Shown: piece after piece, positions 2,508 to 50,838 of the stretch
How positions within the stretch are numbered: position 1 is the first letter of the stretch
How the letters are laid out: each line of letters opens with the position of its first letter
IMG/VR virus record: IMGVR_UViG_3300032236_001858
Reading direction: 5' to 3' (one strand)
DNA from: a virus
Taxonomy: Duplodnaviria > Heunggongvirae > Uroviricota > Caudoviricetes
Length of the DNA stretch: 64,000 nucleotides
Notes under the pieces: model-generated
What the model was told of the DNA's origin: nothing
What the model saw: only the letters and a program-made list of their open reading frames with translations
Databases searched by the model: none
Position numbers and translations under genes: made by a program

Positions 2508-2795
2508 ATGAAAATAGATAAATTTAATGAATTTGTTAGCTCTGAAATATACACTCTTATAGAAAAATCTGAATCCACGCCATTGTCTGATCCAATAGCT
2601 ATTTCACAAAGAGATTCCTACAAAAAGTTACTATCTATGGGTGATAAAGTACTACCATATATTTTAGAAAGAAAATCATACATATGGAATATAGCTCTTA
2701 AAGAGTTAACCGGTGTTGAACCTATTGGTGATAAGAGTAGTGAGATAATGGAATTTTGGGAAAAATGGTCAATTGAAAATGGTTATAAGAAGTGA
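2508..2795 (+). CDS. Hypothetical protein with capsid-targeting-like leader; resembles the small helical partner commonly found next to DUF7689-type genes
   Basis: MKIDKFNEFVSSE; SYKKLLSMGDKVLPYIL...WNIALKELTG...FWEKW. Confidence 0.6.
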   Translation: MKIDKFNEFVSSEIYTLIEKSESTPLSDPIAISQRDSYKKLLSMGDKVLPYILERKSYIWNIALKELTGVEPIGDKSSEIMEFWEKWSIENGYKK

Positions 2796-3207
2796 TATTG
2801 AATATTGGTTTCCTAATATAGTAGGTAAAAATTTTAAAATAATAAAATCTGAAGGTGATTTTAATTGTGTCTCATATACATTGGATATATATGATGGTTG
2901 GATGTGGACAAATACTGAAATTTGGCCATATGATAAAATACCCAGAGATTCAGGAATTAATGGTTTTAAAAATTTATATAACTTATATGGATATTTTGAG
3001 TGTGAGAATGCAAATTTTGAGGAGGGATTTGAAAAAGTAGCATTTTATTCAAAAAATGGATATCCAACTCATGCTTCTAAACAATTTGGTAATATTTGGC
3101 GCAGTAAACTAGGTCCCTCTGTTATAATAGAGCACGAAAAAAGTAAACTAAAAACCCACTCAATTGAGTGGGCTTTTTTAATCTCTAAAAATATAATCAT
3201 CGATTGA
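2773..3207 (+). CDS. DUF7689-like protein (predicted papain-like fold), possibly C-terminally truncated
   Basis: FNCVSYTL, GFEKVAFY, PTHASKQ, WRSKLG, IIEH; reading frame runs through a terminator into the convergent gene. Confidence 0.55.
   Translation: MKMVIRSDIEYWFPNIVGKNFKIIKSEGDFNCVSYTLDIYDGWMWTNTEIWPYDKIPRDSGINGFKNLYNLYGYFECENANFEEGFEKVAFYSKNGYPTHASKQFGNIWRSKLGPSVIIEHEKSKLKTHSIEWAFLISKNIIID
3150..3179. terminator. Bidirectional intrinsic terminator
   Basis: AAAAA-CCCACTC-AATT-GAGTGGG-CTTTTTT between convergent genes. Confidence 0.75.
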
Positions 3208-3897
3208 GTTGGTTATTTCAATTTCATCTATTGTGAATTGTTTAGTTGTTTTATTATATGATCCTACTCTGTATAAATCATCATTAACGAAAACACCAAC
3301 TTGAATATAGTCTTCATCATCAACGGTATCCATATATCTATCAAAGTCTATATTATCCTCTTTATAAATATCTCTAAGTCTTTTTAATCCAGCTAAATAT
3401 TCTTTATCTTGAAAATTAATATAATCTGTATAAGATTTTTTCAATTCTTCTGTACTTATTTCATTGCTAATAAAATATATTTCAAAAGTATGAACAACTC
3501 TTTCATGTCCGTTTGTTTTATCTATATTATATTCACTTTTTTCAAGTTTTAATCCTTCTTCTTCAACTCTATCTATCATTTCTTCTACAGAAATTTTAAT
3601 AGTATTTAGATTTTCAAGAACCTTATTGAAATTATTTTTACCTGGAACTAAACTGTATTGAATTTGACAAGTGTAAAGTAATCTATATTTTTCATTATCA
3701 TCAACCTCAGTATTAACAGCATGACCTTTTGAGTCAATTAGATATCTGTAGTTATTAACTCTAGCAAAGTCTTTGACATCAACTAAACTATCATTGAATA
3801 TATCGGTTGATATAGCTTTAGATTTTATGAAATCCGAATATTCTTGAGATGTTCCAAAAGACTCTTTAATAAAGTCATTATACCTCTTTAATCTCAT
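3178..3897 (-). CDS. Hypothetical protein with capsid-targeting-like leader
   Basis: 239-aa ORF; N-terminus MRLKRYNDFIKES. Confidence 0.75.
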   Translation of the reverse strand: MRLKRYNDFIKESFGTSQEYSDFIKSKAISTDIFNDSLVDVKDFARVNNYRYLIDSKGHAVNTEVDDNEKYRLLYTCQIQYSLVPGKNNFNKVLENLNTIKISVEEMIDRVEEEGLKLEKSEYNIDKTNGHERVVHTFEIYFISNEISTEELKKSYTDYINFQDKEYLAGLKRLRDIYKEDNIDFDRYMDTVDDEDYIQVGVFVNDDLYRVGSYNKTTKQFTIDEIEITNSIDDYIFRD

Positions 3898-4730
3898 TTG
3901 AATGATTGATTTTTTAATATCATTTTAACATGAGTCGAATGAGTTAAATCTACATTAAAGTCTCTTTTTACTTCTTTTTTCAAATAAGGTAACACAAAAT
4001 CATCTTCATATTGAATTGAATAGTCAGATGGTATTTTAGACTTTAGTGTTTCTAATGTTATTGGTAAATAGTTTTCATTTACTTCTCTTTGCCAGTTGTC
4101 AGTATATTTATACTTTAGTAAGAAATGTATAAAGTTTCTATAATCTGAGTTTATACTACCCCATATGTTTTCAAAAGAAAGAAGATAGTTTTTGTCAGCT
4201 TTTCTTCTTACCTTTTTAGCGTCCTCTTTGAAGTTATTAATCTCATTTCTTGTTAATTGTACAGATGGCATCATATCTCTTATTGTGATATATTTAAAAT
4301 TACCACCAAAAACTTGACTATTCCAAAACTTATTAACCGTTAAACTATTTGAATATGAATAAACCTCATGTATAACAGAACTTAAATTTAGCAAAGGATG
4401 TTTTAATCCTGATAACTCTTTGATTACAATTTGCCAATCGTTAGTTAATATTGCATTCTTTGGTAATTTACCAGAAGCTTTATCTAACATTGTTTGGTCT
4501 AAATCATACCCAATGATTTTAACATTTGGTCTCATCTTAGATACACTTTGTAAAAAAGAACCATCGGCGCAACCAAAGTCAACAATAACATCAAATTTTA
4601 CCTCTTCTAGAAAGAATAACTTATCAGACATGGTTGTATTCATGTCGATGATATACTTATCATAGTTAGATATAGGTTTTTCACCTACTAATTCTTCTAA
4701 AAATAATTGCCAAGATAAAATTCTATTCAT
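3894..4730 (-). CDS. Class I SAM-dependent methyltransferase with capsid-targeting-like leader
   Basis: VIVDFGCADG (motif I), IGYDLD, LSSVIHEVYSY; N-terminus MNRILSWQLFLEE. Confidence 0.8.
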   Translation of the reverse strand: MNRILSWQLFLEELVGEKPISNYDKYIIDMNTTMSDKLFFLEEVKFDVIVDFGCADGSFLQSVSKMRPNVKIIGYDLDQTMLDKASGKLPKNAILTNDWQIVIKELSGLKHPLLNLSSVIHEVYSYSNSLTVNKFWNSQVFGGNFKYITIRDMMPSVQLTRNEINNFKEDAKKVRRKADKNYLLSFENIWGSINSDYRNFIHFLLKYKYTDNWQREVNENYLPITLETLKSKIPSDYSIQYEDDFVLPYLKKEVKRDFNVDLTHSTHVKMILKNQSFK

Positions 4731-4734
4731 AGTG

Positions 4735-6758: not shown

Positions 6759-8354
6759 ATGCCAGCTACATATAGTATAAATGTTGGAACTCCAACAGAA
6801 GCTTTAAGAAAGCAAGATATTAATAGTGTACTATTAGATTTACCTGATAATACTCAAAAACTAATATCCCCTAAAGATGTTAGAGATGCTTTTCTATCAG
6901 CTTGGGCTACGTCAGCTTTTAAACAAACAATTGGTCAGGCAAGTATAGAATATCTTGGTATTGATTCAGGTAATCCTGATAATAGAGATATTAAAGAAAA
7001 GATTTTCATTGGTAAGAGAAGTTATACTGGATTGGATATAATGAACAATTCTCTTCTTGGTGATAGTAACAACGATATTTATATTTATAATACTAAGCCG
7101 GACTCGGCTACTCAGAGTACTAAAATTGTTATTTTAGCTGGCACTAACTCATCATTACATGTTAATGCTCCTTATATTCAATCAAGCTCTGTAAATTCTA
7201 GCACAGCACTTGATTTAAATTTAGTTAACCCTTCTTTATTTTCAGGTCCTATTAACATTTATAGTAATACTGGTAGAGTGGCTATCAATGGTATAACTTT
7301 TCCAACCGTTGCTGAAACATCAGCATCAGCATCAAATGGTAAAATTTTAAAGTATTATGGTTCTTATCCAAATGGTGTTCTTAAATGGGCTGATCCATCT
7401 GTAAGTATAGCTTCTATTGGTACGCCTGGTTCACCAACAAACATTTATGGTAGTCCAAGTAATGTAAATGGTCACTCATTAGAGTTTGTTGATAATACAA
7501 TAGTTCCTTTAAGTGTTGGTGGTGTTCAACAAGGAAGTTCTTTTTCAGCTGGTTCTTATCAAGGTCAGAATTGGCCTTTATCAGAGGTTATTAGAAAGCT
7601 ATTATACCCTTATGTTCCACCAACCTTGTCTTGTAGTGTGACAAATACACAAAATAGTACAAATTATTTTTCAACCGGATTAACATATTCTTCAGGTTAT
7701 CCAGGTGCTTTATTTAGATATTCAATTACCAGATATTCAAGTGATATTAGTAGTTATAATATAAGTGGTACAACATATTCAGGCTTATCATTTTCAGGAA
7801 ATGTAGGTAGTCAATTAGTTGCTACTTTTAGTTCTGCTATTTATAGTAATACTGCTGGTACTCAAAGTTATGTTTTAAATGTTAGAGATAACAATGTACT
7901 TATGACATTTTCATATAGTGCTACTGCTTCCGCTGTATTTGTTCATCCTTCTTTTTATAGCTTTAACTCAACCTATATTGACTTTTTTGGAGGAATACCA
8001 TCAACTGTTTCTGCTCAAGTTGGTGCTTTAATGAATTCTTCAACTAGATTGGCTTTTCCTTATATAGCATCGAATTCTATATTTCATAGACAAGATATAT
8101 CTCTGAACTATGTAGGTAGTGGTTACATATATTTTGTAATTCCATCTTCGTATCAATTATCACAGATTAAGGATCCTAATGGATTTATAGTACATGACTA
8201 TACAAGAGTAGGTTCATCGGCGTTTACTTATTCAAATCCTATTACTCCAACGGGTGGTAATAATTTACCAACTCCACCTACAACATGGGTGGTGTATAGA
8301 ACAATAGCAACTTGTAGTTATACAGGTGGTGGTAATTTTGAATTTATATTTTAA
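6759..8354 (+). CDS. Putative virion structural protein (paralog of 8358..9857)
   Basis: S/T/G-rich beta-type composition; shares ISPKDVRDA, SAFKQT, YIQS, LLYPYVPP with the next gene. Confidence 0.65.
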   Translation: MPATYSINVGTPTEALRKQDINSVLLDLPDNTQKLISPKDVRDAFLSAWATSAFKQTIGQASIEYLGIDSGNPDNRDIKEKIFIGKRSYTGLDIMNNSLLGDSNNDIYIYNTKPDSATQSTKIVILAGTNSSLHVNAPYIQSSSVNSSTALDLNLVNPSLFSGPINIYSNTGRVAINGITFPTVAETSASASNGKILKYYGSYPNGVLKWADPSVSIASIGTPGSPTNIYGSPSNVNGHSLEFVDNTIVPLSVGGVQQGSSFSAGSYQGQNWPLSEVIRKLLYPYVPPTLSCSVTNTQNSTNYFSTGLTYSSGYPGALFRYSITRYSSDISSYNISGTTYSGLSFSGNVGSQLVATFSSAIYSNTAGTQSYVLNVRDNNVLMTFSYSATASAVFVHPSFYSFNSTYIDFFGGIPSTVSAQVGALMNSSTRLAFPYIASNSIFHRQDISLNYVGSGYIYFVIPSSYQLSQIKDPNGFIVHDYTRVGSSAFTYSNPITPTGGNNLPTPPTTWVVYRTIATCSYTGGGNFEFIF

Positions 8355-8357
8355 GAT

Positions 8358-9857: not shown

Positions 9858-9862
9858 AAAAT

Positions 9863-9871
9863 TTATATATA
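9863..9871 (+). promoter_or_regulatory. Late-type promoter motif TTATATATA
   Basis: 4 nt before ATG 9876. Confidence 0.6.
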
Positions 9872-9875
9872 CACT

Positions 9876-11015
9876 ATGTCAATACAAATTATAGATGGTT
9901 TTCAAGTAAATACAGCCTTACCAATAGATAATAGAATCGTAGCTTCTGGTTCAGTGGCTAGAAATGCTATACCTTATAAATATGAGGGTTTAAGAGTATT
10001 TGATACTTTTGATGGTATTCCTTATGTTTGGTTAAATGGTGCTTGGGTTGGTGAAAATGCTTCAGGTGTTGCAGGTGCTGGTTCAGCAAGTCATATTCCT
10101 TTGTACACCTCGTCTAATGTTATTGGTAATAGTTTATTATATCAATCAGGTTATAACATTCTTACTGTTGACGCGGGTGGTGGTGCTAATAAAATCTCAA
10201 TGAATGCAAATAACGGTTTAATCATTGCTGCTTTTAGTGGTAATGGTGCCCAAGTTACTAATATTGATGCTGGTAATATATCAAGTGGTCAATTGAGTCT
10301 TAGTAGATTAACTAACGGTTCTACTAATTATATTCTAACAGGTGGTTCAGGTGCTCCAGTATATACAGATCCAAGTCAAGTTACGGTTGGTACTGCTTCG
10401 GTTGCTGTTGTTGCTAATGTTGCAACCAGTGCTAATGTTTTGAATAATGTGTCAAATACTACAAACTATTTAACTTTTGTTTCTGGTACTTCATCTCAAA
10501 ATATTAAAATAAATTCTTCTGGCTTATCATATAATCCATCGACTGGTGTTTTAAATACTAATGGTGGTGATATTTATTTATCAGCATCTGCTAATGGATA
10601 TGTTATAAATAGTTGTCGTAATTATTCAGCTAGTGGTATAGGTTATGTATCTGGAAACATAATGATAGCTAGTGTTGTTGTTCCTTCTCTTGCTTCTATA
10701 ACTGTTGAAGTAACATTTACTGGTAATATCAAAGAATATTCTGGATTCTCAATTGTTGGTTCTCAATATAGAAGTGCTAAATTTGTTGCAGCTTATAGCA
10801 CAAGTAATACTGGTGTTATAACACAATCTGGATCAACAAATACAATTTTGGATGTTGCTTCTTTGGGTTCTGGTTCCGCAACTTTAAGTACCGGTACAAT
10901 AAATATATCAACTGCTGGTGTAATAAAGTTCTATCAAGGTTATACAGGTCCTTCTACTAGTGGACATACAGGTGCTGTGAATCTTACGGTTGATTACAAA
11001 ATAACTATTAGTTAA
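9876..11015 (+). CDS. Putative tail fibre/structural protein
   Basis: ALPIDNR...KYEGLRVF N-terminal module; NIDAGNISSGQLSLSRL fibre-like repeat; S/T/G-rich. Confidence 0.6.
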   Translation: MSIQIIDGFQVNTALPIDNRIVASGSVARNAIPYKYEGLRVFDTFDGIPYVWLNGAWVGENASGVAGAGSASHIPLYTSSNVIGNSLLYQSGYNILTVDAGGGANKISMNANNGLIIAAFSGNGAQVTNIDAGNISSGQLSLSRLTNGSTNYILTGGSGAPVYTDPSQVTVGTASVAVVANVATSANVLNNVSNTTNYLTFVSGTSSQNIKINSSGLSYNPSTGVLNTNGGDIYLSASANGYVINSCRNYSASGIGYVSGNIMIASVVVPSLASITVEVTFTGNIKEYSGFSIVGSQYRSAKFVAAYSTSNTGVITQSGSTNTILDVASLGSGSATLSTGTINISTAGVIKFYQGYTGPSTSGHTGAVNLTVDYKITIS

Positions 11016-11701: not shown

Positions 11702-11737
11702 AATTAAATATATATATTAAAATATCAAACTATTATT

Positions 11738-12055
11738 ATGAAAATTAGAAGATTTAATGAAGATGAACAAGTAGATATCTCATCTGAAAGAATTAGTGAA
11801 ATAAATGACCAATTAAAAGATTTTGCTGCTACTATGTTAGATAAGTCAAAATATGTTGAATCTCTTCTAAACGAACTTAATAACTATAAGAGTGATTCTA
11901 CAAAGGGCAATGACCAGATAGATGATTCTATTGCTGCTTTACAAGTTATTAAAAAAGACGTAGATGATTGTAATGATAAGATTGATACTGTTATTAATAA
12001 TCTAACTGATTATAATGATGGTGGAAGAAAATATATGTACACTGAAAACAAGTAG
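11738..12055 (+). CDS. Coiled-coil hypothetical protein with capsid-targeting-like leader
   Basis: MKIRRFNEDE; heptad pattern. Confidence 0.7.
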   Translation: MKIRRFNEDEQVDISSERISEINDQLKDFAATMLDKSKYVESLLNELNNYKSDSTKGNDQIDDSIAALQVIKKDVDDCNDKIDTVINNLTDYNDGGRKYMYTENK

Positions 12056-13490: not shown

Positions 13491-14057
13491 TTATTTATTG
13501 TAGGTTAATTTGTAGATAGTTCTATATAACAAGGCTACTACCTCGTCTACTAAATTATGTAGATGTGTATCTTTCTCATCAAAGCATTTTCTTTCTGCTC
13601 TTATCCATTCAACAACTTCTTTGAAGTAGTCTAATTTATCTTTAGATTTAGTATCTGTTGTATCAATTTCGTCATATCCTTCAAGTAGACCATATTGACC
13701 TTGATAAACCTCAACAATTTCATCAATATGTTCAATTACGCCTTCATAGTAAGCTTCTAAAGCTAGGTGAGCAGCGTGTGAACCCATATCACCTTTAACT
13801 GTCCAGTGATAAACTTGAGCCATTTCTCTTGATTGTAATAATTTAGACATGAATTTAACAACGGTTACATCACCTGTTGTTTCTGTTTTTTCTTCTTCGG
13901 CCTCATCTTTATTATCTTCGGCTTCTTTAGTCTTAGATTGACCAGCCATTAACTTAATCAATTCTTCTTTTGACATATCTTCATAGTTTTCAGGAAGATT
14001 AGCTTCTGATTCGAATATCTTCTTTTTAACTGGTTTAAAATCTGAAAATTTTTTCAT
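13491..14057 (-). CDS. Ferritin/Dps-like four-helix protein (DUF5856-type) with leader
   Basis: MAQVYHW...SHAAHLALEAYYE...IDEIVEVYQGQYG...DEVVALLYRTIYKL; N-terminus MKKFSDF. Confidence 0.75.
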   Translation of the reverse strand: MKKFSDFKPVKKKIFESEANLPENYEDMSKEELIKLMAGQSKTKEAEDNKDEAEEEKTETTGDVTVVKFMSKLLQSREMAQVYHWTVKGDMGSHAAHLALEAYYEGVIEHIDEIVEVYQGQYGLLEGYDEIDTTDTKSKDKLDYFKEVVEWIRAERKCFDEKDTHLHNLVDEVVALLYRTIYKLTYNK

Positions 14058-14093
14058 TTTTAATTTTTAATTTTTATAAAGTATATATTACTT

Positions 14094-14306
14094 TTATAAA
14101 TCCGATATTCTTTCATCGGTTTGTTCAATATTATCTATTGTATAGTTAGAACCGTTTTCAATTGATGACAAAGCTGAATCTGCTAAGTATCCTGCTTCAC
14201 CTTCATTTTCGGCTGGTATGATTAACTCAACTTGAGCAATTACTTTGTAGTATTTCTGATTTGAGTTATTTTCTAGTATTTTACTGAATTTCTTCATTTT
14301 TATCAT
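14094..14306 (-). CDS. Small hypothetical protein with leader (probable start 14297)
   Basis: MKKFSKILEN. Confidence 0.65.
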   Translation of the reverse strand: MIKMKKFSKILENNSNQKYYKVIAQVELIIPAENEGEAGYLADSALSSIENGSNYTIDNIEQTDERISDL

Positions 14307-15402
14307 TTATTATTTTTGATATTTTCTTTTTAATGTTGTCACCATTTTTATTGAACTGTCTACCCCAATACTCAATAAACTGTTTACAACTCATTTTTCT
14401 GAAAGTATCTAAAGGTATAATTGGTTTTGCATTTTGGTCTTTTACTTCTTTTTCATAAACTTCAACCCACATTTGTTTTAACTTATCAGCAACTTCTTTT
14501 TCATCTTTACAACCAGCTAGAAGCTCATTACTCGTATCTTTCCAATTGTAGTGAGCCGATATTTCATTAATTAGATATACATAAAACATATCAGCATCAA
14601 ATTTTTGCATCTTATCAAATGTTTGCCAAATTTTAAATTCTTTAACATCCTTCTCAGGATATTTTGTAATAAAGTATTTAATTTCTTGAACATTGGCGTT
14701 CATCTCGTGTGATTCACTCATATAAATATACTTTAGAAATTCACTATTCCATTTTTGCCAAATAGCTTTAGGGAATTTCCATTTGTTATTTTCAGCGTAT
14801 GTAAGAGATGTGTTAAAGCTTCTATCATAAATAGGTCTATACTCACCTCTTTTTGTTCCTTTTTTAGTTCTTTTATAGTGTTCGTAACAGTGATTTAACT
14901 CATGATATAAAGTAGAAGCTATCCCATCTATTATAGATTCTTTATGTTCTGGTTTATTTATATCAAAATTAATTTTATCAATATCAATACCAACAGATAA
15001 TTGAATAATAAGTCCGTGATCTGTAACTTGTTTTACTGGTTTAACAATTTTAGAATAATTTTTCCAGTTTTTATTACCAAATCCTGAGGCATAACCACCT
15101 ATGGCTGTGTAATTTGCATAACCATATAAAGAATTAAATTTTAAAGGCATCATTTTTTTGAAATCTAATATTAGTTCAAATCCAACTACTGGGAAGTCAG
15201 CATATAATTGTTTATCCTTTATATAAGGAACTAATGTTCTGTATTTTATCTCAACTCTTTCGTCTAATTTTGTTTCTTTTGAATTTAAAAAATCTATAAA
15301 ACTATAGTATGTTTTATTCTCAAGAACATCAACAAACATTAAACTTGATTCGGAAACACCATGTCTTTCTAGTAGAAACTGTTTAAAATTAAAAATCCCC
15401 AT
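14281..15402 (-). CDS. Putative zincin metallopeptidase with capsid-targeting-like leader
   Basis: TLYHELNHCYEH (HExxH) and downstream HEMNANVQE; N-terminus MGIFNFKQFLLE. Confidence 0.65.
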   Translation of the reverse strand: MGIFNFKQFLLERHGVSESSLMFVDVLENKTYYSFIDFLNSKETKLDERVEIKYRTLVPYIKDKQLYADFPVVGFELILDFKKMMPLKFNSLYGYANYTAIGGYASGFGNKNWKNYSKIVKPVKQVTDHGLIIQLSVGIDIDKINFDINKPEHKESIIDGIASTLYHELNHCYEHYKRTKKGTKRGEYRPIYDRSFNTSLTYAENNKWKFPKAIWQKWNSEFLKYIYMSESHEMNANVQEIKYFITKYPEKDVKEFKIWQTFDKMQKFDADMFYVYLINEISAHYNWKDTSNELLAGCKDEKEVADKLKQMWVEVYEKEVKDQNAKPIIPLDTFRKMSCKQFIEYWGRQFNKNGDNIKKKISKIINDKNEEIQ

Positions 15403-16432: not shown

Positions 16433-16678
16433 ATGAAATTAATAAAAAAGTTTGAAGAATTTGTTTACGGTGCTGGTTCACCTGCTCCTTCTACAAATCC
16501 TACTACAGCACCTACAAAGCCTGCTACAAGACCTTCTACAAAGCCTGGTAAACCTAGTCCAATTAGAAGAGATAAGCCAGCTGTTGAACCAGCTCCTAAA
16601 GCTGAGAAGAAATTAAAAACAGCTACAATGGAAGAGGTAATTCATAAGTTTGCGGACTTAACAAATCAAAAATACTAA
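16433..16678 (+). CDS. Small Pro/Thr-rich protein with capsid-targeting-like leader (track start 16388; ATG 16433 more likely)
   Basis: MKLIKKFEEFVY; PAPSTNPTTAPTKPATRPSTKPGKP. Confidence 0.7.
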   Translation: MKLIKKFEEFVYGAGSPAPSTNPTTAPTKPATRPSTKPGKPSPIRRDKPAVEPAPKAEKKLKTATMEEVIHKFADLTNQKY

Positions 16679-16679
16679 T

Positions 16680-18197
16680 ATGAAAGATTTTAAAAAATTC
16701 TTAGAAGAAGTAACTATAAAAGGCAACCCTGGTGTTCCAAACGAAGGTGATAAAAGACCTGGTGATAAAGACTATCTTAAAGATACTGAAGCAAGAGCTA
16801 AGGCTCGTTTAGGTTTATCTGGTCGTGAACACCCTATGCAAATTGGCCCTAGATTAATGCAGTTGGTTGATCAATCTCAACAAGCAACTCGTGGACACGA
16901 AGAAGAGTTAGAAAACTTAGCTAAGGAAATTATTACACAAAATTATGGTGAGATTCTTGATGGTGTTGAACTTGATATTAAATTATTAAGATCTGGTTCT
17001 CAAATTGCTCAATTTATGCAAGACTGTGAAGAAGAACAAGATGAAGAAAAAGAAGCTCCAAAGTTTAGACAAATTCAAGATCCTGCTACAATTAATAAAA
17101 TACACAAGGCTAAATTAGGTAATAATATTATTCAAGGTGAAGCTAAAAACACTAAACATATTATTGCTACTGAAGAAGTTAAGAATGGTTTGATTGATAT
17201 TTTTGGACCAAAAGCTGATCAGATTTTAAATATGTGGAAAGAAATTAGTAATCTAGCTGATAAAATGGATTGGATTATTCCTATTGAAGTTAAGGCTGAT
17301 ATGATGGAAAGAGCTCCACAAGGTATGGCTGGTGCTGTTTCTGTTGATTGGAAACCTAAACAAAAAGAAGAAGAGGAAGAAAAAGAAGAAAGTGATGAAG
17401 ACTTTGCTACTAGAATTCTTAATGACTTAGCAAATAGTGAAGAACCAAATGAAGAGGATAAAGAAGAATTTGGTGAAGAAGTTCAAGGTGCTACTCCAAG
17501 AATTAGAGCTCGTGGTATTGACTTTCCAATGTTGATTCATGAAACTGTTAAAGGTATTTATGAATTGATTGCTTCAATTCAATTTCCAGCTGAAGGTTCT
17601 TCAGAAGAAGAAGTTAAAATGGCACAAACTGTTAAATTAAATGTTTCTTCATTTGAAGATGAAGCTGAGGATTTCAGAACAGGTCCAGAGATTGCTGCTG
17701 ACTTTAGAGATTTTATCAATGAGAATCCAAATGTTGAACATCCAAATATGAGAGCATTTATTTTTGGTAAATTAATGGATTCAAATTACATTTCTGATGC
17801 TGACTTCTTAAAATTATTTAGAGGTATCTTAAATAAAACTCCAGAGGCTCGTAGAAAAATCGATGAGATGATTGATGAGATTAATCAAGAGTTAAATAGA
17901 TATGAATTGGGTCAAGTTCTTGATGTTGAAGAACCATATGAACAAGAGCATGAAGAAGATGATGATACTATGATGCCAGGTAAAGCTGAGCAAGAGGTTC
18001 CTCAAAAAGCGGCTGAAGTAGATTATTCTGAATTGACTCAAAGAGAATTACAAGAATTAATTGATGATGCTTTGGATGAAGGTGATTATGATAAAGTTAG
18101 AATGTTATCTCAATATATGAAAGAAGGTAAAGAAATTTATCTAAAAGAATTAGAAAGAATTAATGAAGGTCATAACTTTCATACAAGAAGAAAATAA
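16680..18197 (+). CDS. Acidic hypothetical protein with leader and C-terminal UvrB/UvrC-like helical motif
   Basis: MKDFKKFLEE; poly-E tracts; LQELIDDALDEGDYDKVRML. Confidence 0.7.
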   Translation: MKDFKKFLEEVTIKGNPGVPNEGDKRPGDKDYLKDTEARAKARLGLSGREHPMQIGPRLMQLVDQSQQATRGHEEELENLAKEIITQNYGEILDGVELDIKLLRSGSQIAQFMQDCEEEQDEEKEAPKFRQIQDPATINKIHKAKLGNNIIQGEAKNTKHIIATEEVKNGLIDIFGPKADQILNMWKEISNLADKMDWIIPIEVKADMMERAPQGMAGAVSVDWKPKQKEEEEEKEESDEDFATRILNDLANSEEPNEEDKEEFGEEVQGATPRIRARGIDFPMLIHETVKGIYELIASIQFPAEGSSEEEVKMAQTVKLNVSSFEDEAEDFRTGPEIAADFRDFINENPNVEHPNMRAFIFGKLMDSNYISDADFLKLFRGILNKTPEARRKIDEMIDEINQELNRYELGQVLDVEEPYEQEHEEDDDTMMPGKAEQEVPQKAAEVDYSELTQRELQELIDDALDEGDYDKVRMLSQYMKEGKEIYLKELERINEGHNFHTRRK

Positions 18198-18206: not shown

Positions 18207-20162
18207 ATGAAATTATTTAAGTATAACCAATTTTTAGGTGATAAGCCATTAAATGAGAATCTAGACAAAGCTAAAAAGTTCTTGAAAGATAGATTTTTAT
18301 TAAAGACTGCTGCTACTGATCTTGGATTTGTTCAAGGTGAGTTAAAAGCTCAGTTAGATCATAAAGAAAAAAGAAGCTTAGTTTTAGGTGATTTTACACC
18401 AGAACAACAAGAAGAGATAAAAGGTAAACTAAGAACTCTTAAATTAAAAGATGATGAAGTAAGAACTATTGAGAGAGATCCTGAGTTCTTAAAAATCAGA
18501 GAAGCTTTAGGTCAGCAATATATTGGTTGGACTTATCCTTTTACTTATTTCTACTTTGTTGAGATGGTTTCTATGGATGAACTATTCACAAATGAAGGAA
18601 GTATATTCAATAAACTTATTGAGTATAAAGGTTTGTTAGATAAACTACCTAAGAAATTTGACCAAAACTTTATTGACACAAATATTCCTAACAATGCTGA
18701 GGTTTTAATTGATGGATTAGATTCTTTAGAAGATTATAGAAAGATTAAGAAGGTAATTGATAAGTTAACACCGGTTCTTAAAAAAGACTATATGGATTCA
18801 CCAGAAGTTATTAAAGGACAATTTGCCGATGTTTGTAGAGGTTTTGACCAATTAGGTGGTGAAGATGAAGTTAAAAAAGAAAAACTATGGAAGTCATTCT
18901 TTGGTGAAGTTAGAACTATTGATACTGACCAAGTTATTCACGGTAAAGCTTATAAGAAAGGTGATAAAAGATATTTTGGACCACTTAACAGATATACTAA
19001 CATTAGAGAGTTTATTAAAGCGGCTCAAAATTATTTAAAATCATCTGAGAATGAAACGGTTCTTGCTTTCTATGATAAGATTAATGCTTGTAACGAAAAA
19101 TATGGTACACAAGGCGCTGATACAGTATTTGAAGAAAATGGTATTTTAATTATTGAAGTTAAATCTTTCCAAGCTAATCAATTCTTAAATGGTCACACAA
19201 GACACTGTATTAAAGATTACTCTTCACAATGGGAAAACTATGTGGCTTCACATAACAATAAACAATATTATATTTATAACTTTAATATTCCTCAATATGA
19301 TAACCTCTCAACTATTGGTATCACAATTGAACCTGGTCAAAAAATTAGAGCTTGTCACCTTAAAGATGATGCTGGATATTCGAGTAGTATTAAATCTACT
19401 TTGTCTAAATGGCAAAAAGAATATGATATTAAAGAAGACCTTTTTGCTCAACTTAAACCTATGACTGAAGAAGAAATTAGAAGAAGAGAAAGAGCTAAAC
19501 TTGCTGAAAGAGAAATTATTAAGAAAGGTTTATCAATTGAACAAATTAAACAATATGTTAGAGAAGATGGTGCTAATATCAATAAAGATAATTGTGTAGC
19601 TCTTTTACATGCTGTTGAAGAAAACAACCACGAGAAAGCTAAAGTTATTTTAGAATTAGGTGGTTCTCCAAACTTGAGAAGTAAAGCAGATGCTATTATT
19701 AATAAGGCACAAGACTTAGATATGATTAAACTACTTGTTGCTAATGGTTCTGAATTAACAGGTGAGGTATTTAATAACATTTGTAATGACCTTGAGGCAG
19801 TTGAATATTGCTTAAAACAAGGATTAGATCCAAACTTTGATAACTCACTTCCAATCAGAAGATGTTGTAAAGGTGGTTGGAAATCTAAAGATGATATTGG
19901 TGAAGGTTATTTTGATGTATTCCAGTTACTTGTTAAATATGGTGCTAGATTAGCAGACGAGGGTGGTAGAAATATGGCTATCAAATGGGCGGCTGAATAT
20001 GGTAGATTAAACTTTATTGATTATATGATTAGTAAAGGTGTTAAAACAGGTTTCAAAGCAGCTTTATCTTGGTTAAATCATAGTAGAAAAACACCAGATA
20101 ATGTTAAGAAAACAACGGTTGCTTATCTTGAAGATAAAATTAAACAATACGGTGATGTATAA
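18207..20162 (+). CDS. Ankyrin-repeat protein with capsid-targeting-like leader
   Basis: MKLFKYNQFLGD; ALLHAVEENNHEKAKVILELGGSPN, YCLKQGLDPN, AIKWAAEYGRLNFIDYMISKG. Confidence 0.8.
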   Translation: MKLFKYNQFLGDKPLNENLDKAKKFLKDRFLLKTAATDLGFVQGELKAQLDHKEKRSLVLGDFTPEQQEEIKGKLRTLKLKDDEVRTIERDPEFLKIREALGQQYIGWTYPFTYFYFVEMVSMDELFTNEGSIFNKLIEYKGLLDKLPKKFDQNFIDTNIPNNAEVLIDGLDSLEDYRKIKKVIDKLTPVLKKDYMDSPEVIKGQFADVCRGFDQLGGEDEVKKEKLWKSFFGEVRTIDTDQVIHGKAYKKGDKRYFGPLNRYTNIREFIKAAQNYLKSSENETVLAFYDKINACNEKYGTQGADTVFEENGILIIEVKSFQANQFLNGHTRHCIKDYSSQWENYVASHNNKQYYIYNFNIPQYDNLSTIGITIEPGQKIRACHLKDDAGYSSSIKSTLSKWQKEYDIKEDLFAQLKPMTEEEIRRRERAKLAEREIIKKGLSIEQIKQYVREDGANINKDNCVALLHAVEENNHEKAKVILELGGSPNLRSKADAIINKAQDLDMIKLLVANGSELTGEVFNNICNDLEAVEYCLKQGLDPNFDNSLPIRRCCKGGWKSKDDIGEGYFDVFQLLVKYGARLADEGGRNMAIKWAAEYGRLNFIDYMISKGVKTGFKAALSWLNHSRKTPDNVKKTTVAYLEDKIKQYGDV

Positions 20163-20991: not shown

Positions 20992-21393
20992 CTACCACTC
21001 TCTTTCTTTATCTTTTGGTTTGTGTCCTATTTTAGATATTACTAATTCATAGTAGGCATCAGTTTGACCAAAATCTGAAGAATACACATATAAATTAAAC
21101 TCTTTTAGATGTTCATTTACATCATTAATTAGTTCAAATATCTTTGGTTCAACATAATGTAAAACAGATAAATCAATCATAGATTCATATCCGGACTCAT
21201 TAAATACAATAATAAAACAATTATCATCTTTTTCAATTAAAGATGATTGTAAAGAATCTTCTACATAGTATTCTAATTTAGGGAACTCATCAGTTATATG
21301 ATAAAGTATCTCACTTAAATCTTGATATGATATATCAAAATCATTTTGTAGTGAAAATCTTTCTGTTATAAATTGATTGTATTTCTTTATCAT
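20992..21393 (-). CDS. Hypothetical protein with capsid-targeting-like leader
   Basis: MIKKYNQFITE. Confidence 0.75.
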   Translation of the reverse strand: MIKKYNQFITERFSLQNDFDISYQDLSEILYHITDEFPKLEYYVEDSLQSSLIEKDDNCFIIVFNESGYESMIDLSVLHYVEPKIFELINDVNEHLKEFNLYVYSSDFGQTDAYYELVISKIGHKPKDKEREW

Positions 21394-21395: not shown

Positions 21396-21869
21396 TTAAA
21401 CTAAGCTAAGGACTATAGTTCTCAAATCTTTCATCCCTACGTTCATTTTTGTTTTTTCTTTGTATTCACCTTTAAGATACTGTTCAAGTTCTTCCCAGGA
21501 TAAGAGTTTATCACTTAGTCCACCAAATGATTTTTCAATATAGTATAACATTTTTACTCCTGATATTTCTTTTTCAGATATAAGATATTTTATTCTAGGT
21601 GTTACGAAGTCAATAAACTTATCATATTTTGACTTTATTTCATCTATATTATACTCATCTTTTAAACGTCTTCTATTATACTCTTCTGAATCATGATATA
21701 TCTTGTCAATTAAAGCAAATACTATTGATGGTCCACGATCACTAAAGTTTTTAGAATAGTAGCAAACAGGAATACCAAAGTATTCATTGATATCCTCAAT
21801 AAGGTCAACAACTAATATTTCTAAATCATCTTTAGATTCGTTTAGAAATTGATTATATTTCTTTATCAT
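21396..21869 (-). CDS. Hypothetical protein with capsid-targeting-like leader
   Basis: MIKKYNQFLNES; TAATATATA at 21874-21882. Confidence 0.75.
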   Translation of the reverse strand: MIKKYNQFLNESKDDLEILVVDLIEDINEYFGIPVCYYSKNFSDRGPSIVFALIDKIYHDSEEYNRRRLKDEYNIDEIKSKYDKFIDFVTPRIKYLISEKEISGVKMLYYIEKSFGGLSDKLLSWEELEQYLKGEYKEKTKMNVGMKDLRTIVLSLV

Positions 21870-25422: not shown

Positions 25423-25809
25423 TTAAATATAATCATCATCATCAAAGTCATGAAATGTTTTTAGATTAATGAAGTATTTTTTACCATCTTCAGTTTCTAT
25501 ATTAAGCAGATGACTAATACTTTCATCATCATCTTCGATAGTTACATACATATCAGTAACATCTTTTTTATTTTCGTTTAATAAAGATTCTTCAACCTTT
25601 CCAGGTATTTCTAAATATTGATCCAATACTTCTTTAGTTTGATGATCAGTTTCATCAAATTTAACCTCATTATCATAAAGGCTAACTTTCTTATCAGCAA
25701 TCAACTTTTGTAAAAGCGGCTCGCTTGTAAATAAACTCACTTCTTCTGGAGTAAGTTTTACTGATTTTGAGTGTGATTCCTTAATGAAATCTGCGTATTT
25801 CTTTATCAT
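25423..25809 (-). CDS. Two-module hypothetical protein with capsid-targeting-like leader
   Basis: MIKKYADFIKES; internal VEESLLNE junction. Confidence 0.7.
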   Translation of the reverse strand: MIKKYADFIKESHSKSVKLTPEEVSLFTSEPLLQKLIADKKVSLYDNEVKFDETDHQTKEVLDQYLEIPGKVEESLLNENKKDVTDMYVTIEDDDESISHLLNIETEDGKKYFINLKTFHDFDDDDYI

Positions 25810-38663: not shown

Positions 38664-38690
38664 AAAAACCCACTCTAAAGTGGGTTTTTT
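38664..38690. terminator. Bidirectional intrinsic terminator
   Basis: AAAAACCCACT-CTAA-AGTGGGTTTTTT. Confidence 0.85.
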
Positions 38691-40023
38691 ATTTTAAGTA
38701 TCTTTCTAAGTCAGATTTTATTTCACTATTAAGTAATTTTGAATCTACATCACCATAGTCTGAAAAGTTTGGTTGCATTTCATAGGTAAAATATTGTTCA
38801 CCACACCAGTCCTTGAATATATCAAATAAACTATTATCCTTTAGTCTATCTGCATCTTCGTTATCTATCCAGTCATTGCTATAAGGGATAGTATAAAATG
38901 TATCAAGTTCTTGATACTCTTTTCTTGTTTGATTTCCATCAGCATCTTTAGTTGTATAGTATTTAGTGACTTCTCTTTTTTCTTTTGTATATGTAAATTC
39001 CTTTTCAACTATCTCATCAAACTCATTTAGAATTTCTTGGTAGTTAGCATCAACATGAGCATTCATTTCCCAATCTCCAATAGTTTGTTTAACCTCTTGA
39101 CAGATTTCAGAATTTTTACATAGTTTTTTTAATGTATCATAATATCTTTCTTTTAGTAAATAGTTAATAACTTCTTCTTCTGATTTACCTTCCAAGTTTT
39201 CATTTTCTGATTCTGATATAAAATTTTCTAAACCACCAACTTCTTTAATCATAGCTTTGACTAATAGAATTCCATTTTCTTTATCTAATGTATATTGAAA
39301 CATTGATGATGTATCTGGTTGATAATCAGAACCATAGTAATTATCATACATATTTTCTTCTCCGTTTACTAAAATATCTTTATAACTTGACTTTCTTGAT
39401 AACATAATATCAGACATGTCTTCTAGATTAACTTCAACATAAACTTTACCTTCTTTGATAATAGCATCTGACCAGTTGTAATATTTTACAAGTTCTTCTT
39501 CAGTGAATTCAAATGTATCTTTTGATTTAGCAAAAATAGCAATATAATCATTTGCTTCTAATAATTCAGGCTCACTGGAATTCCAGTTATCTGTAAAAAA
39601 TAAACCACCTTTAATTTCTACACCATCTATATCGCCAATATTACCATCCGCGTCGTGTATTGATACTTCAGCATTTGCTTCTTCTGCTATAATTGAACAA
39701 GCAAATTGAAATGTAGAAGTAACATCATCGTTTTTAATTTTTTGTCCTTTATGAATGCTAATCCAGTAAGAAGGTATAACTTTATCACCAGCTTTTACTT
39801 TATCAGTAAAAACATCTTTTTCACTTTCTACCCATTCTCCATTTTTATAAGCACCTCGTTTAACTTTTTCTGAAAATCCAAATTCTACTGAAACAAAATA
39901 TCCAGCATCTGTTATTTCTAACATATAGTCGGTGATATCTTCTTCGGTTAGTTTCCAAAGAGTTTTCTCTTCTATTTGCTCTTTAATAGATTCTTTAATA
40001 AAGTCTAGATACTTTTTAATCAT
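38689..40023 (-). CDS. Acidic hypothetical protein with capsid-targeting-like leader
   Basis: MIKKYLDFIKES; TTATATATA 4 nt upstream. Confidence 0.75.
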   Translation of the reverse strand: MIKKYLDFIKESIKEQIEEKTLWKLTEEDITDYMLEITDAGYFVSVEFGFSEKVKRGAYKNGEWVESEKDVFTDKVKAGDKVIPSYWISIHKGQKIKNDDVTSTFQFACSIIAEEANAEVSIHDADGNIGDIDGVEIKGGLFFTDNWNSSEPELLEANDYIAIFAKSKDTFEFTEEELVKYYNWSDAIIKEGKVYVEVNLEDMSDIMLSRKSSYKDILVNGEENMYDNYYGSDYQPDTSSMFQYTLDKENGILLVKAMIKEVGGLENFISESENENLEGKSEEEVINYLLKERYYDTLKKLCKNSEICQEVKQTIGDWEMNAHVDANYQEILNEFDEIVEKEFTYTKEKREVTKYYTTKDADGNQTRKEYQELDTFYTIPYSNDWIDNEDADRLKDNSLFDIFKDWCGEQYFTYEMQPNFSDYGDVDSKLLNSEIKSDLERYLK

Positions 40024-40034
40024 AGTCTATATAT

Positions 40035-50420: not shown

Positions 50421-50435
50421 TTTATAAATTAAATT

Positions 50436-50444
50436 TAATATATA
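50436..50444 (+). promoter_or_regulatory. Late-type promoter motif TAATATATA
   Basis: 4 nt before ATG 50449. Confidence 0.65.
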
Positions 50445-50448
50445 CATT

Positions 50449-50838
50449 ATGATAAAGAAATATCTACAATTTATAAAAGAAGCTGATGAAACAACAGAGG
50501 CTCAACCTGCTGAAAAATATCAAGATACTGGTAAATATACTGAGCTAAAAGATGAGGTTAAATCAATGATTGAAAAAACCATTGAAAAGAATGGTGGTGA
50601 GTTCAAATCATTTGTAGATAAATTTACAAAATCTCCAGAAGATACTAAGATTGAAGGATTTATTAACGATTCTGATATTTATGAATTTTATTTAAAATTC
50701 AGAAATGATATTGATGAGTTATTAAATAATATTAAGTATTTTAATGAGGTTCCAAGTGACTCAAACACTTTTGGTCTTTATGACTATATCATACATGGAA
50801 CTGAAAAAGCTGTATCAGAAATCGTTAAAGAGTTATAA
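50449..50838 (+). CDS. Hypothetical protein with capsid-targeting-like leader
   Basis: MIKKYLQFIKE. Confidence 0.75.
   Translation: MIKKYLQFIKEADETTEAQPAEKYQDTGKYTELKDEVKSMIEKTIEKNGGEFKSFVDKFTKSPEDTKIEGFINDSDIYEFYLKFRNDIDELLNNIKYFNEVPSDSNTFGLYDYIIHGTEKAVSEIVKEL

What the first reader, a model, noticed from the sequence alone, without database searches (positions are those of the whole stretch)
2508..50838. About 23 unrelated proteins share a T4 capsid-targeting-like N-terminal tag: a large ejected-protein cargo system
Seen: MKIDKFNEFVSSE (2508), MRLKRYNDFIKES (3897), MNRILSWQLFLEE (4730), KLILEFTEF (11701), MKIRRFNEDE (11738), MKKFSDF (14057), MKKFSKILEN (14297), MGIFNFKQFLLE (15402), MKLIKKFEEF (16433), MKDFKKFLEE (16680), MKLFKYNQFL (18207), MIKKYNQFITE (21393), MIKKYNQFLNES (21869), MIKKYADFIKES (25809), MKKVKTYQQFLKS (26560), MKNLKTYEGF (27093), MKNIKKFDEFQINEE (28584), MKHLKSYNEGF (29399), MIKFSKMVTEN (34588), MIKKYLDFIKES (40023), MKFLLEFKSF (43194), MIKKYLQFIKE (50449), plus an internal copy in 13489. 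Known: T4 internal proteins carry an N-terminal capsid targeting sequence (recalled as MKTYQEFIAE) removed by the prohead protease after I/L-x-E. Inference: this phage uses a portable tag to load dozens of enzymes (MTase, ferritin, zincin, ankyrin, HAD, transporter) into the head for injection, far more than T4.
Basis: partly seen in the sequence, partly recalled or inferred. Interest (0 to 1): 0.88.

Follow-up and report, generated by a model that had tools for sequence, protein, structure and literature searches.

The report
T4-like capsid-targeting tags, huge phage
About one in eight proteins of this 476-kb uncultured phage starts with the same short tag that phage T4 uses to load proteins into its head, so the phage probably packs (and may inject) dozens of unrelated proteins, though no virion data exist to prove it.

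Summary
The window is part of a 476,236-bp huge phage related to the 634-735-kb "uncultured phage" genomes.

- **Frequency:** 59 of 622 ORFs genome-wide begin with M-[KR]-x-[LI]-K-[KTR]-[YF]-x-x-F-[IL]-x-E. About 0.5 are expected by chance. Looser or unsupervised counts give about 80.
of 22 N-termini, 13 are strong, 4 weak and 5 unsupported. The methyltransferase and the HAD-like protein are among the unsupported.
- **Tag properties:** the tagged proteins are mutually unrelated. The tag is conserved as peptide, not as DNA.
- **T4 cross-check:** a matrix trained only on this phage picks ipI, ipII and ipIII out of 271 T4 ORFs. It finds almost nothing in three other phages.
- **Head machinery:** the phage has a T4-type head module. 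Its S77 protease is fused to a scaffold with about 11 repeats of YSEY[IL]AENLDKNI, which share the tag's core.
- **Expression:** tagged genes are enriched for the promoter-like motif that precedes the capsid, portal, protease and sheath genes.
- **Cultured relative:** phage PAU carries a sister tag on proteins annotated as internal capsid proteins.

Capsid loading with protease trimming is the best explanation (about 0.6) but is unproven. This scan noted similar tags before in other huge phages.

The parts
2508..2795 (+). Tagged ORF, 95 aa, MKIDKFNEFVSSE; promoter-like motif at 2483-2491
   Evidence: PWM 15.5; motif; no Pfam hit
3178..3897 (-). Tagged ORF, 239 aa, MRLKRYNDFIKES (F-I-K-E|S site)
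   Evidence: PWM 23.9; no Pfam or PHROG hit
11738..12055 (+). Weakly tagged ORF, 105 aa, MKIRRFNEDE; promoter-like motif at 11707-11715
   Evidence: PWM 8.1; member of the unsupervised cluster; motif
13491..14057 (-). Tagged ORF, 188 aa, MKKFSDFKPV, with a DUF5856 domain
   Evidence: PWM 13.9; PF19174 E=9.6e-17; motif at 14081-14089
14281..15402 (-). Tagged ORF, 373 aa, MGIFNFKQFLLER, with HExxH at residue 167; promoter-like motif 5 nt before the ATG
   Evidence: PWM 14.7; HExxH; no Pfam or PHROG hit; motif at 15407-15415
16433..16678 (+). Tagged ORF, 81 aa, MKLIKKFEEFVYG, followed by a Pro/Thr-rich stretch
   Evidence: PWM 17.3; motif at 16403-16411
16680..18197 (+). Weakly tagged ORF, 505 aa, MKDFKKFLEE
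   Evidence: PWM 7.3; member of the unsupervised cluster; no Pfam or PHROG hit
18207..20162 (+). Tagged ORF, 651 aa, MKLFKYNQFLGD, with C-terminal ankyrin repeats
   Evidence: PWM 16.2; Ank_2 E=5.8e-7
20992..21393 (-). Tagged ORF, 133 aa, MIKKYNQFITER
   Evidence: PWM 23.7; no Pfam or PHROG hit
21396..21869 (-). Tagged ORF, 157 aa, MIKKYNQFLNES; promoter-like motif 4 nt before the ATG
   Evidence: PWM 23.9; motif at 21873-21881
25423..25809 (-). Tagged ORF, 128 aa, MIKKYADFIKES
   Evidence: PWM 22.0
25781..26560 (-). Weakly tagged ORF (GTG start), 259 aa, (M)KKVKTYQQFLKS, PQ-loop membrane protein with 3 predicted TM segments
   Evidence: PWM 8.9 and TM segments; PF04193 E=1.6e-11; motif 5 nt before the GTG
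26572..27093 (-). Tagged ORF, 173 aa, MKNLKTYEGFFDF
   Evidence: PWM 13.7; motif at 27100-27108
27688..28584 (-). Tagged ORF, 298 aa, MKNIKKFDEFQINE, then a hydrophobic segment and an OmpA-like peptidoglycan-binding domain
   Evidence: PWM 15.8; PF00691 E=1.3e-7; motif at 28589-28597
28596..29399 (-). Weakly tagged ORF, 267 aa, MKHLKSYNEGF
   Evidence: PWM 6.7; member of the unsupervised cluster; motif at 29405-29413
38689..40023 (-). Tagged ORF, 444 aa, MIKKYLDFIKES
   Evidence: PWM 21.6; no Pfam, PHROG or Atlas lead; motif at 40029-40037
50449..50838 (+). Tagged ORF, 129 aa, MIKKYLQFIKEA; promoter-like motif 4 nt before the ATG
   Evidence: PWM 22.8; motif at 50437-50445

Best explanation
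The shared N-terminus is a capsid-targeting and propeptide tag of the T4 type. It is a 10-14-residue amphipathic peptide with core [LI]-K-x-[YF]-x-x-F-[IL]-x-E. Late in infection it docks unrelated proteins onto the prohead core. That core is built by the phage's own protease-scaffold fusion protein, whose 14-residue repeats (YSEY[IL]AENLDKNI) share the tag's core. After shell assembly, the S77 (gp21-type) protease cuts after the Glu, as it cuts the scaffold repeats and the capsid protein. The cargo stays in the head and is available for ejection with the DNA. **Shown:** the tag, its statistics and modularity, its match to the T4 tag, the T4-type head machinery, and the shared promoter-like motif. 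**Inferred:** docking, cleavage, retention in the head and ejection.
For: 1. **Enrichment.** 59 of 622 N-termini against about 0.5 expected. About 80 by looser or unsupervised counts. Almost exclusively N-terminal.
2. **Unrelated bodies.** The 59 tagged proteins form 58 BLASTP components. Pfam hits are diverse: RNA ligase, PolyA_pol-head nucleotidyltransferase, NUDIX, DeoC, Toprim-like, ankyrin, OmpA, PQ-loop, DUF5856. In the PHROG scan of 20 tagged proteins, 18 had no family.
3. **Selection on the peptide.** Synonymous codons inside the tag follow genome usage.
4. **A discrete module.** Orthologues in 80 related contigs differ by presence or absence of the tag with a sharp junction (MKHLRKFEEL + D/N + YSTY against M[NK]YSTY), or carry different tag subtypes in front of one conserved body (...E|[SG]KKDKFP). 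In a distant relative the RNA ligase, CCA-type enzyme and NUDIX orthologues lack the tag.
5. **Cross-recognition.** The matrix trained here gives 5 hits among 271 T4 ORFs, including ipI, ipII and ipIII. Control phages give 1 of 215, 0 of 296 and 0 of 630.
6. **Machinery.** Portal, S77/phrog_207 protease fused to scaffold, and gp23-type capsid protein. The protease is homologous to those of T4-like phages.
7. **Shared core.** The pattern [YF]xx[YF][ILV]xE occurs 73 times against 20.7 +/- 4.7 expected: 21 at N-termini and 11 in the scaffold. The T4 gp23 cleavage site FGSFLTE|A has the same core. 43 of 59 tags hold [LIVMF]-x-E against 20-29% in controls, and the next residue is Ser in 17 of 43.
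8. **Expression.** The motif [AT][AT]TATATA precedes the capsid, portal, protease and sheath genes. It precedes 27 of 59 tagged genes against 118 of 563 untagged genes (Fisher p=6.7e-5). It is absent before the DNA polymerase, helicase, ligase and SbcC genes. In the window, 12 of 17 tagged genes have it directly upstream.
9. **Cultured relative.** Phage PAU, whose host is a Bacteroidetes bacterium, has a sister tag MKT[LI]SKLYE[AS]KLNE on about 20 proteins around its head genes. Two are annotated internal capsid protein and one scaffolding.
10. **Literature.** The T4 tag suffices to load foreign proteins into the core and is cut off by gp21 (PMC8442874; PMC9958956). T-even internal proteins are diverse defence proteins that share only this tag (PMC3012670).
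Against: - There are no virion proteomics, N-terminal sequences or expression data for this phage or any close relative.
- 16 of 59 tags lack a [LIVMF]-x-E site, and only 28 have strict L/I-x-E.
- Tagged proteins are on average acidic (net charge -0.05 per residue against -0.01, p=8e-8), unlike the basic T4 IPII and IPIII.
- Some cargo is metabolic (DeoC aldolase, NUDIX) or membrane-embedded (PQ-loop), which is not obvious head content.
- Orthologous enzymes work without the tag in relatives.
- The promoter-like motif also precedes the ribonucleotide reductase and UvsX genes, so 'late' is not established.
- Loading 60-80 protein species would exceed anything documented.
Confidence: 0.6

Rival explanations
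1. The tag is a docking or sorting signal for a different partner, not for capsid retention. Candidates are a phage chaperone, a protease that times activation or degradation of late proteins (a propeptide removed in the cytoplasm or at the assembling prohead without packaging), or a membrane or assembly-site localisation signal.
For: - The tag sits on metabolic and RNA-repair enzymes, and on proteins with TM segments or an OmpA domain.
- Tagged proteins are acidic.
- About a quarter of the tags lack a canonical cleavage site.
- Relatives' orthologues lack the tag.
Against: - The tag is specifically recognised as the T4 capsid targeting sequence.
- Its core recurs in the head scaffold and in capsid cleavage sites.
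- The sister tag in PAU sits on annotated internal capsid proteins and on the scaffold.
- No alternative partner gene was identified.
Confidence: 0.22
2. The shared start is a by-product of gene birth and shuffling. A mobile promoter-plus-start cassette is spread by recombination, as proposed for T-even internal-protein loci. The peptide then has little function of its own on most carriers.
For: - Many tagged genes carry the promoter-like motif only 4-7 nt before the ATG.
- Tagged proteins are mostly orphans and turn over fast: 18 of the 20 scanned against PHROGs had no family, and only 7 of 59 have homologues in the distant relatives.
Against: - Codons inside the tag vary synonymously at genome frequencies, so nothing is conserved at the DNA level beyond the peptide.
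- 47 of 65 genes with the close-spaced promoter motif have no tag, and 32 tagged genes have no motif directly upstream.
- The tag consensus is kept in relatives whose protease is only 45-56% identical.
- In one orthologue family the tag columns are as conserved as the folded body (0.72 against 0.63 for the linker).
Confidence: 0.1
3. The motif reflects an RNA-level or translation-initiation constraint on leaderless, AT-rich late mRNAs, or simply K/F/E-rich composition, and is not a protein signal.
For: - The genome is 30% G+C.
- Lys at position 2 is common in all ORFs.
- Many tagged genes look leaderless.
Against: - Shuffled N-termini give 0.7 hits against 59 observed.
- PAU, at 31% G+C, gives 0 of 296.
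- Codon choice is free.
- Most leaderless-type genes have other N-termini.
- Conserved aromatic and Glu positions are not explained by RNA features.
Confidence: 0.03

Closest known systems
[quoted passage not shown]
   Same: - It is an N-terminal peptide of about 10 residues with the same core (K-x-Y/F-x-x-F-I/L-x-E) on otherwise unrelated proteins.
- It ends in a hydrophobic-x-Glu site.
- The phage has a homologous S77 protease, gp23-type capsid protein and gp20-type portal.
- The matrix from this phage recovers all three T4 internal proteins.
   Different: - There are about 60-80 carriers (10-13% of ORFs) against 3-4 in T4.
- The tag is extended by 1-3 residues at its N-terminus (M-K-x-L/I-K...).
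- Carriers include enzymes of up to 651 aa and are acidic on average.
- The protease and scaffold are one polypeptide with 14-residue repeats that share the tag's core.
- Function is untested here.
N-terminal tag of phage PAU head proteins (MKT[LI]SKLYE[AS]KLNE), including gp142 and gp154 'internal capsid protein' and gp152 'scaffolding'
   Same: - PAU is a jumbo phage with a Bacteroidetes host (PMC3738902) and an S77-type protease.
- About 20 of its 296 ORFs share one N-terminal tag with the frame Y-E-S-x-L-x-E.
- The PAU capsid protein loses about 65 residues near ALME|N, which I lined up by eye with SINE|N here on the shared downstream G-M-G stretch.
   Different: - The consensus differs: Lys replaces the second aromatic residue, so the matrix from this phage scores PAU tags below threshold.
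- PAU carriers cluster around the head genes, whereas here they are scattered genome-wide.
- I found no paper that describes the PAU tag.
Long propeptides of phiKZ/SPN3US-type giant phage head and ejection proteins
   Same: A gp21-related protease processes many head proteins, and the propeptides are proposed to target proteins into the prohead (PMC5694885).
   Different: Most of those propeptides are about 80-130 residues long (one is 20) and share no short common tag. Here the tag is 10-14 residues long and shared.
Cargo-loading peptides of encapsulins (HK97-fold nanocompartments)
   Same: A short portable peptide directs unrelated enzymes into an HK97-fold shell (general knowledge).
   Different: Encapsulin peptides are mostly C-terminal, bind the shell itself and are not cleaved. 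There is no homology.

Membership tests
T4-type capsid targeting sequence system | An N-terminal peptide of about 10 residues that matches the CTS consensus (MKTYQEFIAE) | tested here: met
   T4's CTS scores 13.7 bits (threshold 10) on the matrix trained here. The matrix recovers ipI, ipII and ipIII among 271 T4 ORFs. The T4 sequence is confirmed in PMC8442874.
T4-type capsid targeting sequence system | The tag sits at the free N-terminus of otherwise unrelated proteins | tested here: met
   59 N-terminal hits against 7 truly internal hits in 136,100 positions. The 59 bodies form 58 BLASTP components.
T4-type capsid targeting sequence system | The tag ends in the prohead-protease site (L/I-x-Glu, cut after Glu) | tested here: inconclusive
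   28 of 59 have L/I-x-E, 15 more have V/M/F-x-E and 16 have none. Controls give 20-29%. Cleavage itself is not testable here.
T4-type capsid targeting sequence system | The phage encodes a gp21-type (Peptidase_S77) protease, a scaffolding core, a gp23-type capsid protein and a gp20-type portal | tested here: met
   PF03420 match (E=1.2e-5, below the curated cut-off) and phrog_207 at E=1.2e-31. Capsid protein phrog_138 and portal phrog_213. tblastn hits to T4-like, Lak and Rak2-like proteases.
T4-type capsid targeting sequence system | Tagged genes are expressed late, together with head genes | tested here: inconclusive
   The promoter-like motif shared with the capsid, portal, protease and sheath genes is enriched 2.2-fold on tagged genes (p=6.7e-5). 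It also precedes the RNR and UvsX genes. No transcript data.
T4-type capsid targeting sequence system | The tag is sufficient for encapsidation and is removed in the prohead | not testable with these tools
   Needs virion proteomics or reporter fusions. The complex prediction gave no verdict.
phiKZ/SPN3US-type long propeptides | Propeptides of about 80-130 residues without a short common tag | tested here: not met
   The tag is 10-14 residues long and shared. Orthologue junctions place the body start right after it.
Sec, Tat or lipoprotein signal peptides | A hydrophobic core of 10 or more residues after a basic N-region | tested here: not met
   The tag is charged and amphipathic. True signal-peptide-like N-termini form a separate cluster of 18. 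Only 2 of 59 tagged proteins have TM segments at the threshold used.
Paralogous family with a common N-terminal domain | Homology that extends beyond the shared start | tested here: not met
   58 singleton components at BLASTP E<1e-3 once the tag is removed. Pfam domains are heterogeneous.

The most novel reading that the evidence does not exclude
This clade of huge Bacteroidota phages pre-loads its capsid with 60-80 different proteins through one T4-like tag that mimics a repeat unit of the scaffold. The cargo would include a tRNA-repair pair (RNA ligase plus CCA-adding-type enzyme), NUDIX, ankyrin-repeat, peptidoglycan-binding and membrane proteins, and dozens of fast-evolving orphans. These would be injected as a ready-made counter-defence and take-over kit. 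That would be the largest packaged proteome known for any phage, and the tag alone would let injected proteins be read off uncultivated genomes.
Probability: 0.35. Interest if true: 0.85.

Novelty: new variant of a known kind. Interest (0 to 1): 0.7.

Why it matters
- **Prediction from sequence.** If the tag works as in T4, the virion-packaged and probably injected proteins of uncultivated huge phages can be predicted from sequence alone.
- **A function for large capsids.** These phages would invest a tenth of their genes in pre-made cargo. That offers a concrete role for oversized capsids and for many orphan genes: first-minute counter-defence such as tRNA repair, and take-over of the host.
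- **Evolution of the system.** It would extend the T4 capsid-targeting principle from a three-protein curiosity to an ancient, expandable loading system of T4-type heads. T4, PAU and this clade would each carry a lineage-specific dialect.
- **A testable mechanism.** The tag's likeness to the scaffold repeat suggests that cargo co-assembles with the scaffold and is released by the same protease.
- **Practical use.** It offers new, naturally diversified tags for loading proteins into phage capsids.

Tried and rejected
- **Complex prediction.** I folded the protease domain (residues 1-215) with the first 40 residues of the tagged 444-aa protein. Score 0.01, no verdict, so it is neither support nor evidence against.
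- **Function of the orphans.** A PHROG scan of 20 tagged proteins left 18 without a family. Atlas look-ups of two tagged orphans returned only hypothetical viral clusters, with weak zincin-like leads (SprT-like, LPD23 at 0.82-0.85) for the HExxH protein.
- **Tag/scaffold covariation.** This was not informative. Both the tag core and the scaffold repeat are conserved even in relatives with 45-56% identical protease, so they are co-conserved but do not covary.
- **960-aa protein.** This protein, upstream of the sheath operon, holds two internal tag-like motifs. It has no PHROG family and no homologue in the fetched parts of two relatives.
- **Exact-variant scan.** A degenerate DNA scan of IMG/VR for MIKKYxxFIKE found only 19 stretches. 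At least two lie on contigs already recovered as relatives, so it adds little on breadth.
- **Literature.** Among the top-ranked hits I found no open-access paper that links capsid targeting sequences with huge, jumbo or metagenomic phages. The jumbophage capsid paper does not describe the PAU tag.
- **Rejected readings.** Signal peptide, paralogue family and composition artefact (see the membership tests and rival explanations).
Full report
**Context.** The window is bases 96490-160489 of a 476,236-bp virus record with 30% G+C, estimated 97% complete. Its nearest public relatives are the 634-735-kb "uncultured phage" genomes LR745206, LR756502, LR756501 and LR756504. My simple ORF call gives 622 ORFs of at least 50 aa that cover 93% of the genome.

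- I built a position weight matrix from N-termini and scored a 10-residue core that excludes the initiator Met. It hits the N-terminus of 59 of 622 proteins.
- The same matrix hits 10 of 136,100 internal positions, which predicts 0.4 N-terminal hits. Three of those ten follow an internal Met directly and look like mis-called starts.
- Shuffling residues 2-25 of every protein gives a mean of 0.7 hits and a maximum of 4.
- The consensus is M-[KR]-x-[LI]-K-[KTR]-[YF]-x-x-F-[IL/x]-x-E-[S]. There are two main dialects, MIKKYxxFIKES and MK[HY]LK[TK][YF]xxF.E.
- To remove circularity I trained a matrix only outside the window. It finds 11 of 73 window ORFs and no internal position among 19,077.
- Unsupervised clustering of N-terminal 14-mers gives one cluster of 81 proteins. 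Internal control segments give a largest cluster of 3.
- Lowering the threshold to 5 bits gives 82 hits against 3.2 expected. So about 60-80 proteins, 10-13% of the proteome, carry the tag.
The claimed internal copy was not found.

**What kind of thing is it?**
- With the tag removed, the 59 proteins fall into 58 BLASTP components.
- Pfam finds unrelated domains on a minority:
  - in the window, ankyrin repeats, an OmpA-like domain, a PQ-loop membrane domain and DUF5856;
  - elsewhere, a T4-type RNA ligase, a PolyA_pol-head (CCA-adding-type) nucleotidyltransferase, NUDIX, a DeoC-type aldolase and a Toprim-like domain.
- Of 20 tagged proteins scanned against PHROGs, 18 had no family.
- Inside the tag, synonymous codons are used at genome-wide frequencies. 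Selection therefore acts on the peptide and not on the DNA.
- Eighty related IMG/VR contigs (protease 71-91% identical) show that the tag is a discrete module.
  - One family next to the portal gene exists with the tag (MKHLRKFEEL, then D/N, then YSTY...) and without it (M[NK]YSTY...).
  - A family after the capsid gene carries several tag dialects, all joined to the same body at ...E|[SG]KKDKFP.
- In a distant relative (LR756504), the orthologues of the tagged RNA ligase, nucleotidyltransferase and NUDIX enzymes start without the tag.
- The tag itself persists in LR756504 and LR756500, whose proteases are 56% and 45% identical. It is on 21 of 588 and 22 of 532 ORFs in 400 kb of each genome.

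**Link to T4.**
- The T4 capsid targeting sequence is MKTYQEFIAE. It is cut off once the protein is in the prohead, and it carries foreign proteins into the head (PMC8442874; PMC9958956). T-even internal proteins are a diverse set of defence proteins that share only this tag (PMC3012670).
- I fetched the T4 genome and scored its 271 ORFs with the matrix trained on the huge phage. Five N-termini pass: gp61.1, ipII, ipIII, a mis-positioned hit in regA, and ipI. The annotation confirms the three internal virion proteins.
- The same matrix gives 1 of 215 in cyanophage Syn9, 0 of 296 in PAU (31% G+C) and 0 of 630 in CBB. All three have S77-type proteases. So the resemblance is specific and is not an effect of composition.

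**Head machinery.**
- Upstream of the window the genome has a portal (54435-56162), a 720-aa protein (59876-62038) and a gp23-type capsid protein (62115-63809). The first ~200 residues of the 720-aa protein are a gp21-type protease: phrog_207 at E=1e-31 and a sub-threshold PF03420 match.
- After the protease domain come about 11 tandem 42-bp (14-residue) repeats, YSEY[IL]AENLDKNI. All 80 relatives keep them, and so do the three distant genomes.
- The repeat core Y-x-x-Y-[IL]-A-E is the tag core [YF]-x-x-F-[IL]-x-E, and it resembles T4's Y-Q-E-F-I-A-E.
- The four-position pattern [YF]xx[YF][ILV]xE occurs 73 times in the proteome against 20.7 +/- 4.7 expected. Of these, 21 are at N-termini and 11 are in the scaffold.
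- T4's capsid protein is cut after FGSFLTE, which has the same core (65-residue removal per PMC9958956).
- This phage's capsid protein has SINE|NAY. I lined this up by eye with PAU's ALME|NYQ on the shared G-M-G stretch that follows. N-terminal sequencing shows that PAU's capsid protein loses about 65 residues.
- 43 of 59 tags hold [LIVMF]-x-E against 20-29% in controls, and the following residue is most often Ser.

**Expression.**
- A motif [AT][AT]TATATA(C) lies upstream of the capsid, portal, protease, sheath and other large structural-type genes. It is absent upstream of the DNA polymerase, two helicase genes, the ligase, SbcC and a helicase-methyltransferase gene. It does precede the ribonucleotide reductase and UvsX genes.
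- It precedes 27 of 59 tagged genes against 118 of 563 untagged genes (p=6.7e-5).
- In the window, 12 of 17 tagged genes have it. By position, the other five lie directly downstream of genes that carry it.
- Its distance to the ATG is bimodal, 4-7 nt or 19-26 nt. The short class suggests leaderless mRNAs. However, 47 of 65 genes in that class have no tag, so the tag is not a by-product of leaderless starts.

**A cultured parallel.** Phage PAU's host is a Sphingobacterium, a member of the Bacteroidetes (PMC3738902). PAU has its own N-terminal tag, MKT[LI]SKLYE[AS]KLNE, on about 20 of 296 ORFs, mostly around the head genes. The carriers include gp142 and gp154, annotated "internal capsid protein", and gp152, annotated "scaffolding". 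I found no paper that describes this tag.

**Mechanism proposed, with shown and inferred steps kept apart.**
- Shown: a portable, N-terminal, peptide-level-conserved tag that matches the T4 tag; a T4-type head module; a scaffold whose repeat shares the tag core; protease-type sites at the tag's end; and a shared promoter-like motif.
- Inferred: the amphipathic tag (hydrophobic at -3, 0, +3 and +4) packs onto the scaffold's coiled-coil repeats during core assembly. The protease then cuts scaffold, capsid protein and tags after Glu. The cargo stays with the DNA and can be ejected.
- The peptidoglycan-binding and membrane proteins among the carriers would suit an ejection apparatus. The RNA ligase and CCA-type enzyme would suit immediate repair of host-cleaved tRNAs.

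**Evidence against and limits.**
- There are no proteomic or transcript data.
- A quarter of the tags lack a canonical cleavage site.
- The cargo is acidic on average.
- Some carriers are metabolic enzymes.
- Tagless orthologues exist in relatives.
- The complex prediction gave no verdict.
- I put capsid targeting with trimming at about 0.6. Another docking or propeptide role is at about 0.2, a shuffling cassette with little peptide function at about 0.1, and an RNA or composition artefact at about 0.03.

**Novelty.**
- The T4 capsid targeting sequence and the diversity of T-even internal proteins are long known.
- New here are the same tag in a distant clade of huge phages, its scale (60-80 carriers, including enzymes) and its likeness to the repeat of a fused protease-scaffold.
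- Among the top-ranked hits of my literature search, no open-access paper links capsid targeting sequences with huge or metagenomic phages.
- This scan has flagged similar tags in other huge phages, so the phenomenon looks widespread rather than unique to this genome.

Noticed in passing
Genome 59876-62038 (outside the window, about 34 kb upstream); L005:876-3038: The prohead protease and scaffold are one 720-aa protein. It has an S77-type domain, then about 11 tandem 14-residue repeats YSEY[IL]AENLDKNI, then a His/Glu/Asp-rich stretch with two CGPM motifs (residues ~470-540) that may bind metal.
   Followed up: partly
Window 21873-21881, 28589-28597, 50437-50445 and about 140 further sites genome-wide: The promoter-like motif (T)AATATATAC has a bimodal distance to the start codon, 4-7 nt or 19-26 nt. 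The short class implies leaderless mRNAs for about 65 genes. The motif resembles the T4 late promoter TATAAATA.
   Followed up: partly
T4 genome NC_000866, 18966-19130 (gene 61.1): The 54-aa hypothetical protein gp61.1 of T4 starts MKTFKEFIKED. It scores higher on the tag matrix (21.4) than the known internal proteins. It may be an unrecognised protein carrying the capsid targeting sequence.
   Followed up: no
Phage PAU NC_019521, about 100-114 kb: About 20 PAU proteins share the N-terminus MKT[LI]SKLYE[AS]KLNE. They include two annotated internal capsid proteins and the scaffolding protein. I found no paper describing this.
   Followed up: partly
Genome 31915-34797 (-), L003:11915-14797: A 960-aa orphan protein heads the operon that continues with a tagged 186-aa protein and the tail sheath. 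It contains two internal tag-like motifs (LKKFREFLNE, FRYFDFINE), possibly internal protease sites.
   Followed up: partly
Window 6759-11015 (+): Three consecutive proteins of 531, 499 and 379 aa; the first two share an N-terminal start (M..T[YF]SIN[VI]GT.TEA). The one scanned, the 531-aa protein, has no PHROG family. The first is preceded by the promoter-like motif. They may be structural or fibre proteins.
   Followed up: no
Window 353-1804 (+): A Ro60-like RNA-binding protein (phrog_850). This fits the earlier notes on Y-RNA-like and tRNA-like genes in this genome.
   Followed up: no
Window 27147-27662 (+) and 17 other genes genome-wide: A separate cluster of 18 N-termini looks like ordinary signal or lipoprotein signal peptides (for example MRTVLFIILMIINSIGFAQ). 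It is distinct from the tag.
   Followed up: no
Genome 63890-64576 (just after the capsid gene): This protein resembles a DUF814/NFACT-R-type domain, judged by eye only and not run through Pfam. In many relatives the protein starts with the tag, joined at ...E|[SG]KKDKFP. In this genome it instead has a ~105-residue N-terminal extension, with a degenerate tag (MNFKLFTE) inside it.
   Followed up: partly
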